Part shown: in pieces, positions 2,843-7,217 of the stretch
Layout of the letters: the number at the start of each line of letters is the position of its first letter
How positions within the stretch are numbered: position 1 is the first letter of the stretch
Sequence record: DRR723986_1328
Length of the DNA stretch: 64,000 bases
Strand: one strand, 5' to 3'
Program-made: the position numbers and the translations under genes
Notes under the pieces: generated by a model
Seen by the model: only the letters and a program-made list of their open reading frames with translations
Database searches by the model: none
What the model was told of the DNA's origin: nothing

Positions 2843-3004
2843 ATTGCGGTATTTCGACCGAAAAATTCCTGTCGGAAGTGAAACCAATTAAAGTCCGACG
2901 GGTTGTCGTAAGTGAACATTCAGACACTGCGGGCACGTTTGCGGAGTTACCGCGGGCGTTTTCGCAAAGCTCGATTTTTCGCACGCTTCAGACCAGGATA
3001 CGTA

Positions 3005-4243
3005 ATGTCTCTCTCCAGAACCGTCACCCTATTCCTTGGCGCAACAGCGCTCGTCGTTGCCCCTTCCCTGTCGCCGGATGTGCCTTCGCTTTCCTTCCAT
3101 GTGGACAAGGCGTTCGCCAAGAATGGCAACGGAAACGGCAATGGTGGTGGCGGCGGCAGAAATTCCGGCGGCAATGGTGGCGGCAACAAGGGAAATTCCG
3201 GCAACAAGGGCAATAGCGGCAACTCCAACCGCGGTGGGAACTCCGCTTCCAACGGCAACGGCAACAAGGGCCTTGGGATTTTCAACCGCGGCAGTGGTTC
3301 CAAGCAGGCCAAGTCGAACAACGGCAACGGAAATGGAAAAGGCCTCGGTGGCTTTCTGAATTCCGTATTCGGAACCGAAAATTCAAAGAGCTCCGGCAAG
3401 CGTCAGACCGCCTCCAGAGGCAATAGCGGCACCGCGAGCCATCGGCTTCCAAAGGCTGAACGCGCGACACTGGCAAGCATTGCCGTGACCCCACAGGCAA
3501 GCCCTGCAGGCAAACCGAAGAACTTCAATGCAAAGCTTGGCCGGTTGAATTCCCTCAATCGCAATTACCACGCCTATATCAATTCCAACGACCCGCATCT
3601 GGCAGCCATTCAGGCCTACATAAATGACAGCCTTGCCTACGAGCGGCTTTCCGCAGATCTGCAAGGCCTCGAACAGGACCTCCTGACCGCACGTACGCTG
3701 TTCGACGGGTTGCTTCAGGACGTGGACAGCTATGACGGCTTCGCCTACGAAGGCCTGACCTCGCAACAGCTCGAAGACCGGCTTGCCGAACTTGAAAGCC
3801 TGGATACGGCTGAATTGTCAGATGACGAGCTGACCGCTCTCGAAACTGAAAGACTGGCGCTTGAAACTGCTCTTCAGAGCGACGCCTATTCGGATTTCAA
3901 AACGGCTGAAACCAACTACGAAACGGAAAAGACCGGCCTGGATGGGCTCGCCGCTGATGTTTCTGACGAAGCGTTGGAAGAAGCACTTCTGGCGATGGCA
4001 AACGAGAACCGCGTCCGGGAATATGGCGACGACTACGTCGACGAGGAAATGCTCGACTGGGCCAAGCAGGTTCTCGGGGTTGGCGATTACGACGGCAAGA
4101 TCGATGAAATCCGCGAAGCAACCGAGACCCCGGACGACGGCACGGACCCGATTGATCCCGATGAAACAGCCGTCAACGACGATGGTACGGACGGTTCGGA
4201 CGCCGATCCGGATGAACTGCGCCTGATCTCGACGTCCAACTAG
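3005..4243 (+). CDS. Hypothetical exported protein with Gly/Asn-rich low-complexity region and acidic helical C-terminus
   Basis: ATG 3005 with AGGA upstream; hydrophobic leader ending AFA; GNG/GNKGNS repeats; host-like codon usage. Confidence 0.75.
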   Translation: MSLSRTVTLFLGATALVVAPSLSPDVPSLSFHVDKAFAKNGNGNGNGGGGGRNSGGNGGGNKGNSGNKGNSGNSNRGGNSASNGNGNKGLGIFNRGSGSKQAKSNNGNGNGKGLGGFLNSVFGTENSKSSGKRQTASRGNSGTASHRLPKAERATLASIAVTPQASPAGKPKNFNAKLGRLNSLNRNYHAYINSNDPHLAAIQAYINDSLAYERLSADLQGLEQDLLTARTLFDGLLQDVDSYDGFAYEGLTSQQLEDRLAELESLDTAELSDDELTALETERLALETALQSDAYSDFKTAETNYETEKTGLDGLAADVSDEALEEALLAMANENRVREYGDDYVDEEMLDWAKQVLGVGDYDGKIDEIREATETPDDGTDPIDPDETAVNDDGTDGSDADPDELRLISTSN

Positions 4244-4748: not shown

Positions 4749-5201
4749 CTAGGCCTTGCGTTCCCAACCGCCGGCTTCGGTCTGTTGCCAGTAAGCGATT
4801 TCAAACCCTTCCGCCTTGGCTTCCTTCCAGCGATTGCGCGCTTCCTGAACAGCCTCGGTATCGTTGCCATCAAACATGTAGATCGCCCGCTTGTAGGCGC
4901 TCAGCGGTGGCGGCGCTGCCCTGTCCACCAGGAAGCGCACGTCGGCTTCGTTCGGATTATCCTGTTCGGACGTGAGATATATCGGCTGATGTTCGGCGTA
5001 ACCGTCTGCCTTGGTGCCATGTGGCAGAAAACCGTCGTCGGTAAAGGTCCACAAATGGGCATCAAGGGCGCTGCATCGCTCCTCGGTTCCCGTTTGCACG
5101 ACAACTTTCCAATCCCGCTCCAGGCACTTTTGCAAAAGCTGTGGCAAAGCCATCTCCAGCGGCTTGTGCAAAAGGTGATAGAATACAACTTCAACGCTCA
5201 T
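4749..5201 (-). CDS. holC: DNA polymerase III subunit chi
   Basis: VVFYHL, LDAHLWT...FLPHG, ARNRWK, YWQQ...GGW; adjacent to pepA. Confidence 0.93.
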   Translation of the reverse strand: MSVEVVFYHLLHKPLEMALPQLLQKCLERDWKVVVQTGTEERCSALDAHLWTFTDDGFLPHGTKADGYAEHQPIYLTSEQDNPNEADVRFLVDRAAPPPLSAYKRAIYMFDGNDTEAVQEARNRWKEAKAEGFEIAYWQQTEAGGWERKA

Positions 5202-5480
5202 GCCGGACCCTGTCTAGACACATCCTTGTACCTTCGCTTTCCGTTTTCCACCGCCATGCCGGAATGTGGTGCAGGCCTGCAACACTTGCCTGTTCAAATT
5301 CCCCCGACGGCAAACATGACATGGACAGGCCATAAGACTCGTATCATTAACCCTTCGAAAATGTCGATTGGCTAGGGTTCGTCCCCGGGGACGATCCAAT
5401 GATCATTTGATTTGGCCATGGATCAAAAAATTTGGCTGGTGAGCGGTTTTCCCGAGCCGGCGCAAAAGGGGATTTGGTGA

Positions 5481-5597
5481 ATGCTTGCGCGTGTCGTTGT
5501 GTTTTTCGCATTGGTTGCTGTCGTTGCAGGCGCGACACTTGGCATGGGTCTTCTGGTTGAACCGGCAACGGCCTGCCAGACCTACAAGACCTGCTGA
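5481..5597 (+). CDS. Small 38-aa peptide: signal-peptide-like leader plus C-terminal CQTYKTC (not in ORF track)
   Basis: Hand translation MLARVVVFFALVAVVAGATLGMGLLVEPATACQTYKTC*; purine-rich AAAAGGGGA upstream; terminator 22 nt downstream. Confidence 0.6.
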   Translation: MLARVVVFFALVAVVAGATLGMGLLVEPATACQTYKTC

Positions 5598-5619: not shown

Positions 5620-5649
5620 GAAAAACCCGCCTTTCCGGCGGGTTTTTCT
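5620..5649. terminator. Bidirectional rho-independent terminator
   Basis: GAAAAACCCGCC-tttcc-GGCGGGTTTTTC between the convergent small ORF and pepA. Confidence 0.85.
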
Positions 5650-5717
5650 TTGCCCAGCGGCATTCCAGTCCTGGCGCCCTCCACCAGTAGAAAATGCGAA
5701 GGGCGCCAAGATGGACC

Positions 5718-7217
5718 TCAGCCTTCGTAGTGATCCGCGACAAGCTGGTTGAGCAGTCGCACGCCATAGCCCGAAGCCCAGCTCTGGCAGATATCGTCCT
5801 TCGGAGCGCCGAATGCGGTTCCGGCGATATCCAGATGCGCCCAGGGCACGTCGTTCGTGAAACGCTGCAGGAACTGGGCTGCGGTGATGGACCCGGCCCA
5901 CCGGCCACCGGTGTTCTTGACGTCTGCGTTGGGCGTGTCGATGATCTTGTCGTATTCCTTCGACAGCGGCAGGCGCCAAAGCGGCTCACCGCTCGACTTG
6001 GCAGATGACAACAGCTTGTCTGCCAGAGCGTCGTTGTTTGAAAAGAGACCGGCATTCAAATTGCCGAGAGCGACAAGCACGGCACCGGTGAGCGTTGCCA
6101 GATCGATCATGATCGCCGGTTTGTACTTTTCCTGCGTGTACCAAAGTGCGTCGGCAAGAACCAAACGGCCTTCCGCATCGGTATTCAGGATCTCGATCGT
6201 GGTTCCGGACATGGCCGTGACGATGTCACCTGGTCGTTGCGCGTTACCGTCCGGCATGTTTTCGACGAGGCCGATGACACCGATCACGTTTGCCTTGGCC
6301 TTGCGCCCCGCGATCGCATGCATGGCGCCGATGACTGCGGCAGCTCCGCCCATGTCGCCTTTCATATCTTCCATGCCCGCGGCCGGCTTGATGGAGATGC
6401 CGCCAGTGTCGAACACCACGCCCTTACCAACGAACGCAACCGGGGCGTCACCCTTTTTGCCTCCGTTCCAGCGCATCACGGCCAGCTGCGGTGGGCGGGT
6501 CGAGCCTTGGGACACGCCAAGCAAAGCAGCCATCTTAAGCTTCTTCATTTCCTTTTCGCCGAGAACCTCGACTTCGACACCAAGGGCCGTCAGTTCCTTG
6601 GCCTTCTCGGCAAACTCCACCGGACCCAGCACATTCGCCGGTTCGTTCACAAGGTCGCGGGCCAGAATTACGCCGTCGGCAATAGCTTCAGCAGAAGACC
6701 AGGCCTTCTTTGATGCCTTGGGATCGGCAACGGCCAAGGTCACCTTCATGTTCTTGGGTTTGTCATCGTCTTTCTTGGCAGTCTTGTAGGTGTCGAAGGC
6801 ATAGGCCCGCAGCTTCACGCCCATTGCAAACTCTGCTGCCAATACACCGGACGGATCTGCATCGCCCGGGACATCCAGAAGCACCGTTGCTGCGTCTGCC
6901 TTGGTCTTCTGCAATTCTGCAAACACCGCGCCGCCGAAAGCCCGCCAATCGTCGCCAGTCAGCTCGCCGGCATCGCCAACGCCGAATACGATCAGCCGGT
7001 CGAGACCCGATCCGGCAGGAGCGACCAGATCAAGACTTGCCTTCTTCTTCCCGGTGAAACCTGCGATACCGGCCGAACGTTGCAAGCCTCCCTCGAGACC
7101 CGAGACAACTTCCGCAGCAACCGGCCCAAGGCTAAGGTCGCTACCGGCCAGGATTACGGCCACCCCACCCTTCGGCGTTTCGGCCTTGGAGAAGTTCAGT
7201 TTTGCAAGCTTGGTCAT
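5718..7217 (-). CDS. pepA: Leucyl aminopeptidase (M17)
   Basis: [48 protein letters not shown]. Confidence 0.96.

What the first reader, a model, noticed from the sequence alone, without database searches (positions are those of the whole stretch)
5481..5597. Hidden micro-gene encoding a signal peptide plus a 7-residue Cys-bounded peptide (CQTYKTC)
Seen: a 38-codon ORF between holC and pepA, below the ORF-track cutoff. It has a purine-rich RBS and its own terminator (5620-5649). The product is a basic N-terminus, a long hydrophobic core, then P-A-T-A and CQTYKTC. Established: P-(x)-A-x-A is the signal peptidase I motif, and periplasmic Cys pairs are oxidised to disulfides. Inference: almost the whole gene is an export leader for a tiny disulfide-cyclised heptapeptide, the layout of a secreted signalling or metal-binding peptide. 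I know of no such system described at this locus. No receptor or modification enzyme is adjacent.
Basis: partly seen in the sequence, partly recalled or inferred. Interest (0 to 1): 0.72.

Follow-up and report, generated by a model that had tools for sequence, protein, structure and literature searches.

The report
Conserved 38-residue membrane micro-protein gene
A real, strongly conserved 38-codon gene found only in the marine bacterial family Stappiaceae most likely makes a tiny membrane-anchored protein with a two-cysteine tail, rather than a secreted seven-residue peptide; its function is unknown.

Summary
The ORF at 5481-5597(+) exists as described and is a real coding gene. Across 25 same-genus sequences, 38 of 39 third codon positions vary, against 16 first and 8 second positions. 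Median pairwise dN/dS is 0.07, and the length changes by one in-frame codon.

A profile finds it full-length and single-copy in 128 of 132 genomes of the family, in 10 of 10 genera. It sits between holC and pepA. No credible copy turned up in 291 other genomes of the order. A profile search of 1.84 billion proteins returned only this family. It has no Pfam or NCBIfam family, and sources that name it call it "hypothetical protein".

The secreted-heptapeptide reading is only partly supported. The two Cys, the Tyr and the stop directly after the last Cys are invariant in 60 of 60 sequences. However, the apolar run is 22-23 residues in all 60, which is transmembrane length. Residues inside it are invariant (R4, F8, V12, G17, G23). 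The -1/-3 cleavage positions are canonical in only 42 of 60.

Best reading (about 0.5): a retained N-in/C-out micro-protein with a periplasmic C-x5-C loop, working like MgrB without being related to it. Cleavage to a free peptide remains possible (about 0.2).

The parts
5266..5285 (.). 20-bp near-perfect dyad GTGGTGCAGGCCTGCAACAC (family consensus GTG-N-KGC-N6-GCAACA); candidate regulator-binding site in the holC/micro-gene divergent region
   Evidence: Conserved in the genus alignment and in 14 of 21 loci across the family. It lies a fixed 65-69 bp from the TTAAC block, while its distances to either ATG vary. No RNA structure is supported (alifold -1.6 and -0.5 kcal/mol). The pattern is not clearly enriched genome-wide (18 hits against 8 for the control in 5 genomes). 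The function is inferred.
5322..5327 (+). Candidate -35 element TGGACA
   Evidence: The aligned position reads TGGACA, TTTACT, TAGACA, TTGATT or TTGCTT in family loci (by eye), 17-18 nt before the TTAAC block. The sigma-70 scan did not call it. Inference.
5345..5351 (+). Candidate -10 element within the conserved block (C)ATTAAC
   Evidence: TTAAC is the best-conserved non-coding block, both in the genus and in the family. Inference; no transcription-start data.
5358..5361 (+). Conserved AAA(T/C) 6-8 nt after the candidate -10; candidate transcription start, giving a 5' UTR of about 120 nt
   Evidence: alignment, by eye. Inference.
5466..5472 (+). Shine-Dalgarno-like AAGGGGA, 8 nt before the ATG
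   Evidence: Purine-rich equivalents sit before the ATG in all 20 loci printed (by eye).
5481..5597 (+). Coding sequence of the 38-aa micro-protein (stop TGA at 5595-5597)
   Evidence: codon-position variation 16/8/38 of 39; median dN/dS 0.07; 128 of 132 genomes; synteny.
5481..5492 (+). N-terminal M-L-A-R; R4 invariant; predicted cytoplasmic end
   Evidence: net +1 in 59 of 60. The topology is inferred from the positive-inside rule (recalled).
5493..5558 (+). Residues 5-26: apolar helix rich in small residues, with invariant F8, V12, G17 and G23; predicted transmembrane segment
   Evidence: The apolar run is 22-23 aa in 60 of 60 sequences. The AlphaFold2 model has a helix at residues 2-25, with block pLDDT of 94 and 92.
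5559..5573 (+).
5574..5594 (+). Residues 32-38, CQTYKTC: C-x5-C loop ending the protein; C, Y and C invariant, K and T nearly so
   Evidence: Cys spacing is 5 in 56, 6 in 2 and 7 in 2 of 60 sequences, and the last Cys is the last residue in 60 of 60. Within the genus, pN/pS of the tail is 0.065 against 0.25 for residues 2-26.
5620..5648 (.). Bidirectional intrinsic-terminator hairpin shared by the micro-gene (+) and the convergent pepA (-)
   Evidence: A comparable A-run/GC-stem/T-run hairpin lies within 90 nt after the stop in 14 of 21 loci (by eye). The stem is conserved in the genus.

Best explanation
This is a real, translated, single-copy core gene of the family Stappiaceae. It encodes a 38-41-residue single-pass inner-membrane micro-protein that stays in the membrane. 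The short basic N-terminus (M-x-x-R) faces the cytoplasm. Residues 5-26 form one transmembrane helix whose face of small and invariant residues (F8, L11, V12, G17, T19, G23) packs against another membrane helix, either a partner protein or further copies of itself. The 12-residue C-terminal tail lies in the periplasm, where its two invariant cysteines are oxidised to a seven-residue disulfide loop that displays the invariant Tyr and the near-invariant Lys. The protein would then act as small membrane proteins such as MgrB do: it binds and modulates a larger membrane protein, and the state of the disulfide loop could couple that activity to periplasmic redox conditions. Because it is too short for co-translational targeting, it would be inserted after translation by SRP with YidC or SecYEG. 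Shown here: coding status, conservation, helix length, the invariant residues, the Cys pair and the synteny. Inferred: topology, disulfide formation, retention in the membrane and the existence of a partner.
For: Coding status. In 25 same-genus sequences, variable columns by codon position are 16, 8 and 38 of 39. Mean pS is 0.589 against pN 0.106, and median pairwise dN/dS is 0.069 (263 of 300 pairs with dS > 0.05). The 38/39-aa length difference is one in-frame codon. Four of the other five frames have dN/dS of 1.55-3.0 with 2-34 stops; the fifth has 0.20 but 38 stops. Invariant residues use 2-4 synonymous codons.

Distribution. The gene is full-length in 24 of 25 same-genus genomes. A profile finds it in 128 of 132 genomes of the family at E <= 2.1e-5, in 10 of 10 genera. 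Synteny (holC, micro-gene, pepA, in the same orientations) holds in 19 of 20 loci from other genera and one divergent same-genus locus.

Membrane helix. The apolar run is 22-23 residues in 60 of 60 sequences. The AlphaFold2 model has a helix at residues 2-25 with pLDDT 92-94. R4, F8, V12, G17 and G23 are invariant in 45 sequences.

Topology. The N-terminus is net +1 in 59 of 60 sequences, and the tail is net 0 or -1 in 56 of 60.

Tail. Both Cys, the Tyr and the stop directly after the last Cys are invariant in 60 of 60. The tail is the most constrained part within the genus (pN/pS 0.065).

Precedent. MgrB is 47 aa with one TM helix. Its TM region mediates binding to PhoQ, and its two conserved periplasmic cysteines (C28, C39) are needed for activity and make it redox-sensitive (passages of PMC8404706; passages of PMC12648545). 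Post-translational SRP/YidC/SecYEG insertion of proteins too short for co-translational targeting is described in passages of PMC12648545.
Against: There is no direct evidence of translation, localisation, topology or a disulfide. No partner is identified. The neighbours (rhodanese, HolC, PepA, LptF/G) give no functional clue, and the synteny may be historical only. In the window's own genus the linker E-P-A-T-A followed by Cys looks like a good signal-peptidase I site, and 42 of 60 family sequences keep canonical -1/-3 residues, so cleavage cannot be dismissed. The clustering of conserved residues on one helix face is only marginal: 516 of 10,000 permutations reach the observed helical moment. 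One species (G044) has lost most of the gene by an internal deletion, so it is dispensable at least there. The RNA data available were assembled contigs and say nothing about expression.
Confidence: 0.5

Rival explanations
1. Residues 1-31 are a Sec signal peptide removed by signal peptidase I after A-T-A. This releases the heptapeptide CQTYKTC, which is disulfide-cyclised in the periplasm and leaves the cell as a signal or metal-binding peptide.
For: The window sequence has a basic n-region (R4), with Pro at -4 and A-x-A at -3/-1 before Cys32. The -1/-3 positions are canonical in 42 of 60 family sequences, or 47 of 60 if T is allowed at -1. The last seven residues are the most constrained part within the genus (pN/pS 0.065 against 0.25). 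The C-x5-C spacing and the stop directly after the last Cys are kept in 56 and 60 of 60 sequences respectively.
Against: The apolar run is 22-23 residues in 60 of 60 sequences, against 7-15 for signal-peptide h-regions (passages of 10.1101/2020.11.11.378711). In 18 of 60 sequences the site before the Cys is non-canonical, with Q, I or N at -1, or N, E, D, Y or Q at -3. Specific residues inside the 'leader' are invariant across the family. No receptor, exporter or modifying enzyme is adjacent. No paralogues exist: the second hits are spurious. I recall no precedent for a Sec precursor with a 7-residue mature part.
Confidence: 0.2
2. A type I toxin-like or stress-induced membrane-perturbing peptide. 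When expressed, the hydrophobic peptide inserts into the inner membrane and depolarises or remodels it; expression is normally kept low.
For: It is small and hydrophobic, stands alone with its own promoter-like block and terminator, and lies in an intergenic site. A conserved dyad upstream suggests regulated expression. The features of type I toxins are recalled, not tested.
Against: It is single-copy and vertically inherited at one syntenic site in 128 of 132 genomes, not patchy or multi-copy. Apart from the upstream promoter-like blocks, the SD and the terminator stem, no conserved non-coding block that could encode an antisense RNA lies in the 5' UTR or beside the ORF. No Rfam family reaches its threshold (10 matches at E <= 1, best 26.7 bits against a gathering score of 55). 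The invariant periplasmic Cys/Tyr/Lys tail points to specific recognition rather than bulk membrane damage.
Confidence: 0.08
3. Opposite topology (N-out/C-in), or a cytoplasmic-face tail whose two thiols, with Tyr, Lys and the terminal carboxylate, bind a metal ion or a cofactor. The protein would be an accessory subunit or chaperone of a membrane enzyme, in the manner of the small subunits of respiratory oxidases.
For: The Cys pair and the terminal position of the last Cys are invariant. Small subunits such as CcoQ and CcoS are single-helix proteins with N-out/C-in topology (passage of PMC12648545).
Against: The charge bias favours N-in: net +1 at the N-terminus in 59 of 60 sequences, and a tail net 0 or negative in 58 of 60. 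C-x5-C is not a usual metal-binding spacing (recalled). There is no match to any Pfam or NCBIfam small-subunit family and no oxidase genes nearby.
Confidence: 0.07
4. Not translated: the conservation reflects an RNA or DNA element such as a small RNA, a pepA/holC regulatory region or a terminator region.
For: The region lies between two co-oriented genes that are adjacent in other families.
Against: The three-base periodicity of substitutions, dN/dS of 0.07, the in-frame indel, the conserved ATG, stop and SD, and synonymous codon turnover at invariant residues all point to translation. No Rfam hit reaches its threshold.
Confidence: 0.03

Closest known systems
MgrB (47-aa inhibitor of the sensor kinase PhoQ in enterobacteria)
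   Same: Both are under 50 aa with a short basic cytoplasmic N-terminus, one TM helix with functionally important conserved residues, and a short periplasmic C-terminal region carrying two conserved cysteines (passages of PMC8404706; PMC12648545). In MgrB the cysteines are needed for activity and make it redox-sensitive; here that role is only inferred.
   Different: There is no sequence relationship: Pfam and NCBIfam give 0 families at E <= 10. The tail here is 12 residues against 22, the Cys spacing is 5 against 10, and the protein ends exactly at the second Cys. No kinase partner is known. The family is restricted to Stappiaceae.
Accessory single-helix subunits of membrane complexes (CydX, AcrZ, CcoQ/CcoS)
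   Same: Size, a single hydrophobic helix, stand-alone or small genes, and action by helix packing against a larger membrane protein (listing and passages of PMC12648545).
   Different: Those genes usually lie in or near the operon of their partner. This one lies between holC and pepA, which are cytoplasmic proteins. None of those subunits carries an invariant terminal C-x5-C loop (recalled).
Sec-type signal peptide cleaved by signal peptidase I
   Same: A basic n-region, a hydrophobic core, and a polar linker with small residues at -1 and -3 in the window's genus.
   Different: The hydrophobic run is 22-23 aa against 7-15. The -1/-3 rule fails in 18 of 60 relatives. Core residues are invariant. 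The mature part would be only 7 residues.
Type I toxins (Hok, TisB, Ibs and similar small hydrophobic peptides)
   Same: Small hydrophobic single-helix peptides encoded by stand-alone intergenic genes (recalled; HokB is named among small membrane proteins in the listing).
   Different: The gene is single-copy, syntenic and near-universal within one family. No candidate antisense RNA was seen.

Membership tests
Sec/signal peptidase I signal peptide | Positively charged n-region of 1-5 residues | tested here: met
   M-x-x-R; net +1 in 59 of 60 sequences and +2 in 1. The criterion is from passages of 10.1101/2020.11.11.378711.
Sec/signal peptidase I signal peptide | Hydrophobic h-region of 7-15 residues, shorter than a TM helix | tested here: not met
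   The uncharged apolar run after R4 is 22-23 residues in 60 of 60 sequences. The AlphaFold2 helix spans residues 2-25.
Sec/signal peptidase I signal peptide | Small uncharged residues at -1 and -3 of the cleavage site, conserved among relatives | tested here: inconclusive
   Met in the window (A-T-A before Cys32). Across the family it is canonical in 42 of 60 sequences, or 47 of 60 if T is allowed at -1; Q, I or N at -1, or N, E, D, Y or Q at -3, occur in the rest. Other cleavage positions were not scored.
Sec/signal peptidase I signal peptide | Actual cleavage, or a positive call by a trained predictor (SignalP, Phobius) | not testable with these tools
   No such predictor or experiment was available.
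Lipoprotein (signal peptidase II) signal | Lipobox [LVI][ASTVI][GAS]-C with no charged residue just upstream (pattern recalled) | tested here: not met
   The window reads E-P-A-T-A-C, with A at -3, P at -4 and E at -5. Other genera have T, Q, I or N at -1.
Tat signal peptide | Twin-arginine motif in the n-region (recalled) | tested here: not met
   A single Arg (R4) is the only positive charge in the n-region in 59 of 60 sequences; the remaining one, L054, has K3 before R4, not a twin arginine.
MgrB family | Sequence membership (match to a Pfam or NCBIfam model) | tested here: not met
   0 families at E <= 10 in Pfam and in NCBIfam.
MgrB-like small membrane regulators (functional class, not homology) | Under 50 aa, one TM helix, conserved TM residues and two conserved extracytoplasmic Cys | tested here: met
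   The extracytoplasmic location of the tail is inferred from the charge bias only.
MgrB-like small membrane regulators (functional class, not homology) | Binds and modulates a larger membrane protein | not tested
   No candidate partner was identified. The homodimer job gave no verdict (see Tried and rejected).
Type I toxin-antitoxin | Cognate antisense or overlapping small RNA | tested here: inconclusive
   No Rfam family reaches its threshold, and no conserved non-coding block overlaps the ORF or its 5' UTR apart from the promoter-like block and the SD. No strand-specific RNA data were available.
Type I toxin-antitoxin | Patchy, often multi-copy distribution (recalled) | tested here: not met
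   There is one full-length copy per genome in 128 of 132 genomes, at one syntenic site. The secondary hits are spurious.
RiPP precursor peptide | Adjacent maturase, protease or exporter genes | tested here: not met
   The neighbours are a rhodanese-domain protein, HolC, an M17 aminopeptidase and LptF/G. The same neighbours are kept across genera.

The most novel reading that the evidence does not exclude
The micro-gene is a minimal peptide-signal cassette of a Gram-negative bacterium. It would be a 31-residue Sec leader whose only cargo is a seven-residue, disulfide-cyclised peptide (C-x-x-Y-K-T/A-C). Signal peptidase would release it with no dedicated maturase or exporter, and it would be small enough to leave through porins. 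It would then serve as a family-wide diffusible signal or metal-binding peptide of marine Stappiaceae.
Probability: 0.17. Interest if true: 0.8.

Novelty: new member of a known kind. Interest (0 to 1): 0.42.

Why it matters
Bacterial proteins under 50 residues are still poorly catalogued, and very few outside enterobacteria have any assigned role. This one is an unusually clean candidate. It is a core gene of a whole marine family (Roseibium/Labrenzia, Stappia, Pannonibacter, Pseudovibrio, Breoghania) under strong purifying selection. It was added to an otherwise compact pepA-holC pair. It has a simple, testable architecture of one helix plus a two-cysteine loop, and one species carries a natural deletion. 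If it is retained in the membrane, it extends the MgrB-type principle (a small helix plus a redox-sensitive periplasmic loop) to alphaproteobacteria through an unrelated sequence, and finding its partner would reveal a lineage-specific regulatory input. If it is cleaved, it would be a new, minimal route to a secreted cyclic peptide. It has no Pfam or NCBIfam model, so defining the family would also improve annotation.

Tried and rejected
1. Homodimer prediction: no verdict (score 0.06, mark 0.32). It counts neither for nor against self-association.

2. RNA evidence: all four runs laid were Logan contigs of 1.7-85 kb spanning several genes, so they show neither expression, strand nor transcript ends. 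The only hint is that in run X15 two contigs end at 5642 and 5652, on either side of the terminator's T run. That is one study and too weak to use.

3. ESM Atlas: the best hits score 0.79-0.84 and are unnamed 38-40-aa clusters, below the level that beats shuffled controls. No lead.

4. PDB sequence search with the family profile: 4 hits at E = 0.44-6.6, none significant.

5. Rfam: 10 hits at E <= 1, all below the gathering scores and mostly on the terminator hairpin.

6. Simple promoter and terminator scans: 0 and 0. The terminator rule missed the hairpin confirmed.

7. Paralogue search. The family profile gave secondary hits at E = 4e-4 to 0.4. The two that lay in short open frames were inspected: the first overlaps a 218-aa ORF on the other strand, and neither has the Cys tail.

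8. Regulon search with the upstream dyad pattern in five genomes: 18 hits against 8 for the reversed control, with no recurring intergenic site identified. Dropped.

9. RNA structure in the conserved upstream module: alifold -1.6 and -0.5 kcal/mol, so there is no support for a structured RNA.

10. Positional analogues in other families. Of 28 loci from other families, 20 hold both genes. The pepA-holC gap is 6-189 nt in 15 of these and 469-649 nt in 5. None has a comparable hydrophobic ORF on that strand; one unrelated 23-aa frame appeared in a locus without pepA. The five large gaps were not examined further.

11. Earlier findings of this scan: nothing on record.

12. Literature. Searches for the tail peptide strings, 'Stappiaceae' with 'small protein', and Roseibium/Labrenzia with small-ORF terms found no paper on this gene.

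13. Helix-face clustering of conservation: 516 of 10,000 permutations reach the observed moment. This is marginal and not used as support.

Full report
OBSERVATION. An in-frame TGA at 5478-5480 directly precedes the ATG, so the start is unambiguous. AAGGGGA at 5466-5472 lies 8 nt upstream. The flanking genes are HolC (4749-5201, minus strand; PF04364) and an M17 aminopeptidase (5718-7217, minus strand; PF00883/PF02789). A rhodanese-domain gene and LptF/G lie beyond them. The micro-gene is therefore on the strand opposite to pepA and holC, divergent from holC and convergent with pepA.

The hairpin at 5620-5648 has a 12-bp stem and a 5-nt loop, with an A run before it and a T run after it. The 63-nt stretch folds at -24.1 kcal/mol (z = -3.2). 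Because of its symmetry it can serve both convergent genes. The simple scan did not list it.

IS IT A GENE? Yes, with high confidence. A six-frame search found a full-length match (residues 1-38, no stops) in 24 of 25 genomes of the same genus, at 68-100% identity. The one miss is a 79%-complete assembly.

In the 24 loci plus the window, the ATG and the stop are at homologous positions. The evidence for translation is as follows (unless stated):
- Variable alignment columns by codon position number 16, 8 and 38 of 39.
- Mean pairwise pS is 0.589 against pN 0.106.
- Median pairwise dN/dS is 0.069 (263 of 300 pairs with dS > 0.05).
- The only length difference (38 against 39 aa) is one in-frame codon.
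- Four of the other five frames give dN/dS of 1.55-3.0 with 2-34 stops. The fifth gives 0.20 but contains 38 stops.
- Invariant residues are encoded by two to four synonymous codons, for example G17 by GGC, GGT, GGA and GGG, and T19 by all four ACN codons.

DISTRIBUTION. A profile of 15 genus sequences (A1) found the gene in 130 of 132 genomes of the family at E <= 1. Of these, 128 are full-length matches at E <= 2.1e-5, and all 10 genera are represented.

The four exceptions were examined:
- In G002 and G121 (79% and 61% complete) holC is not found either, so the region is simply unassembled.
- G055 is a 20-Mb assembly with 6% contamination, and its holC match is only 34% identical.
- G044 is a true loss. 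The upstream conserved blocks, the SD, the ATG with seven codons, and the terminator remain, but the rest of the ORF is deleted.

Outside the family, a broader profile (A2) found nothing credible in 291 genomes of the same order. The three hits at E = 0.003-0.01 cover only the hydrophobic part and lie inside open frames of 69-408 aa. A full HMMER scan of 1.84 billion representative proteins returned 8 hits at E <= 0.001. Seven are this family; the eighth is a repetitive 209-aa protein matching profile positions 15-31 only.

A word-indexed search of 5.8 billion proteins gave 51 hits at E <= 0.01. None carries a Pfam domain. Where a source names them, they are 'hypothetical protein' in Roseibium, Stappia, Pannonibacter, Pseudovibrio and Breoghania. 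The window's exact sequence is in public collections on 45 contigs, and a cluster member is 'hypothetical protein CLV41_11135 [Roseibium marinum]'. The gene is thus called by some pipelines but has never been named. Pfam and NCBIfam give 0 families. Literature searches for the tail peptide, for Stappiaceae with small proteins, and for Roseibium/Labrenzia with small ORFs found nothing on it.

LOCUS HISTORY. In 20 loci from the nine other genera plus one divergent same-genus locus, holC lies upstream on the other strand in 20 of 20. pepA lies downstream and convergent in 19 of 20, and three of those have extra DNA between.

In other families of the order, 20 of 28 holC loci also hold pepA. The gap between the two genes is 6-189 nt in 15 of these and 469-649 nt in 5. 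No comparable hydrophobic ORF lies on the opposite strand. The micro-gene, with its roughly 0.5-kb spacer, therefore looks like a family-specific addition to an otherwise compact pepA-holC pair. That last step is inference.

ANATOMY OF THE PROTEIN. Across 45 sequences (A3) the invariant residues are M1, R4, F8, V12, G17, G23, C32, Y35 and C38. L11 and T19 are conserved at 90% or more.

In 60 unique sequences:
- The uncharged apolar run after R4 is 22-23 residues in all 60.
- The N-terminus is net +1 in 59 and +2 in 1.
- The tail side chains sum to 0 in 29, -1 in 27, -2 in 2 and +1 in 2.
- The two tail cysteines are 5 residues apart in 56, 6 apart in 2 and 7 apart in 2.
- The second Cys is always the last residue.

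The linker between the helix and the first Cys (E-P-A-T-A in the window) is the variable part of the protein.

AlphaFold2 with the 45-sequence alignment gives a helix over residues 2-25 at pLDDT 92-94 and a low-confidence tail at 54-64. Within the genus the tail is more constrained (pN/pS 0.065) than residues 2-26 (0.25). Across the family, conservation is shared between specific helix positions and the C-x-x-Y-K-T/A-C motif. The conserved helix positions tend to one face, but only marginally: 516 of 10,000 permutations reach the observed moment.

- The n-region criterion is met.
- The h-region criterion is not met: the run is 22-23 residues in 60 of 60 sequences.
- The -1/-3 criterion is met in the window and its close relatives but not family-wide. 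It is canonical in 42 of 60 sequences, or 47 of 60 if T is tolerated at -1. The rest carry Q, I or N at -1, or N, E, D, Y or Q at -3. Pro28 is replaced by E or Q even within the genus.

A lipobox and a twin-arginine motif are both absent (both patterns are recalled). No maturase, exporter or receptor gene is adjacent, and no paralogues exist. These results lower the 'leader plus heptapeptide' reading but do not exclude it. I could run no trained predictor, and alternative cleavage positions in the deviating lineages were not scored.

BEST EXPLANATION. Length, charge bias, the invariant small and aromatic residues within the helix, and an invariant two-cysteine tail fit the class of bacterial small single-pass membrane proteins that act by binding larger membrane proteins.

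The closest worked example is MgrB. It is 47 aa with a cytoplasmic basic N-terminus. Its TM region mediates complex formation with PhoQ. Its two conserved periplasmic cysteines, C28 and C39, are required for activity and make it sensitive to periplasmic redox state (passages of PMC8404706; PMC12648545). The resemblance is functional and architectural, not homologous.

Proteins this short cannot be targeted co-translationally. They are inserted post-translationally by SRP with YidC or SecYEG (passages of PMC12648545). I put about 0.5 on a retained N-in/C-out micro-protein with a periplasmic disulfide loop. Other readings:
- Cleaved, released peptide: about 0.2.
- Toxin-like membrane peptide: about 0.08.
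- Inverted topology or metal-binding accessory subunit: about 0.07.
- Non-coding element: about 0.03.
The remainder is unassigned.

EXPRESSION SIGNALS (INFERRED). The best-conserved non-coding DNA of the spacer is a module with fixed internal spacing, made of two parts:
- A 20-bp near-palindrome, GTGGTGCAGGCCTGCAACAC, at 5266-5285.
- A block 65-69 bp downstream, in 14 loci, that reads like a promoter for the + strand: TGGACA at 5322-5327, a 17-18-nt spacer, (C)ATTAAC at 5345-5351, and a conserved AAA at 5358-5361.
The distances from this module to the holC ATG and to the micro-gene ATG both vary. This would give a 5' UTR of about 120 nt. There are no transcription-start data. The dyad pattern is not clearly enriched elsewhere in five genomes, and the module has no supported RNA fold.

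WHAT REMAINS OPEN. Translation, localisation, topology, disulfide state, processing, the partner and the phenotype are all untested. The RNA runs available were assembled contigs and are uninformative. The dimer prediction returned no verdict.

VERDICT. The gene is real, family-restricted and undescribed. The secreted-heptapeptide mechanism is the less likely of two live readings. In novelty it is a new, unrelated family within the known kind 'small single-pass membrane proteins'. It is a worthwhile candidate for small-protein biologists, but it is not a categorical surprise unless cleavage and release are shown.

Noticed in passing
window 5266-5285 and 5322-5361: A 20-bp near-perfect palindrome and a TTAAC-containing promoter-like block keep a fixed 65-69 bp spacing in 14 loci across the family, while their distances to holC and to the micro-gene vary. 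This is probably a regulator site plus core promoter. A GANTC site (GACTC, 5336-5340; the CcrM motif is recalled) lies between the candidate -35 and -10.
   Followed up: partly
window 5664-5715 (minus strand, just after the pepA stop): A long, nearly perfect inverted repeat forms a very stable hairpin. The 108-nt stretch including the terminator folds at -63.1 kcal/mol, z = -7.4. It is not conserved among same-genus genomes, so it may be a strain-specific repetitive extragenic element.
   Followed up: no
L124 (handle G044) 2228-2290: This is a natural deletion allele. The promoter-like blocks, SD, ATG and seven codons of the micro-gene run straight into the terminator hairpin, and the helix and Cys tail are gone. 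It is the only clear loss among 132 family genomes.
   Followed up: yes
window 2912-4243 (+): A 443-aa ORF with a long Gly/Asn/Ser-rich low-complexity first half and an acidic C-terminal half has no Pfam family.
   Followed up: no
window 6082-6113 (inside pepA): In all four runs laid, a second contig matches this 32-base stretch with 2 differences and loose ends on both sides (tables 7 and 8). A short piece of pepA sequence therefore recurs elsewhere in these genomes.
   Followed up: no
L086, L087, L091, L097, L101 (other families of the order): The pepA-holC gap is also enlarged (469-649 nt) in 5 of 20 loci from other families, without a comparable hydrophobic ORF on the opposite strand. What fills these gaps was not examined.
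   Followed up: no
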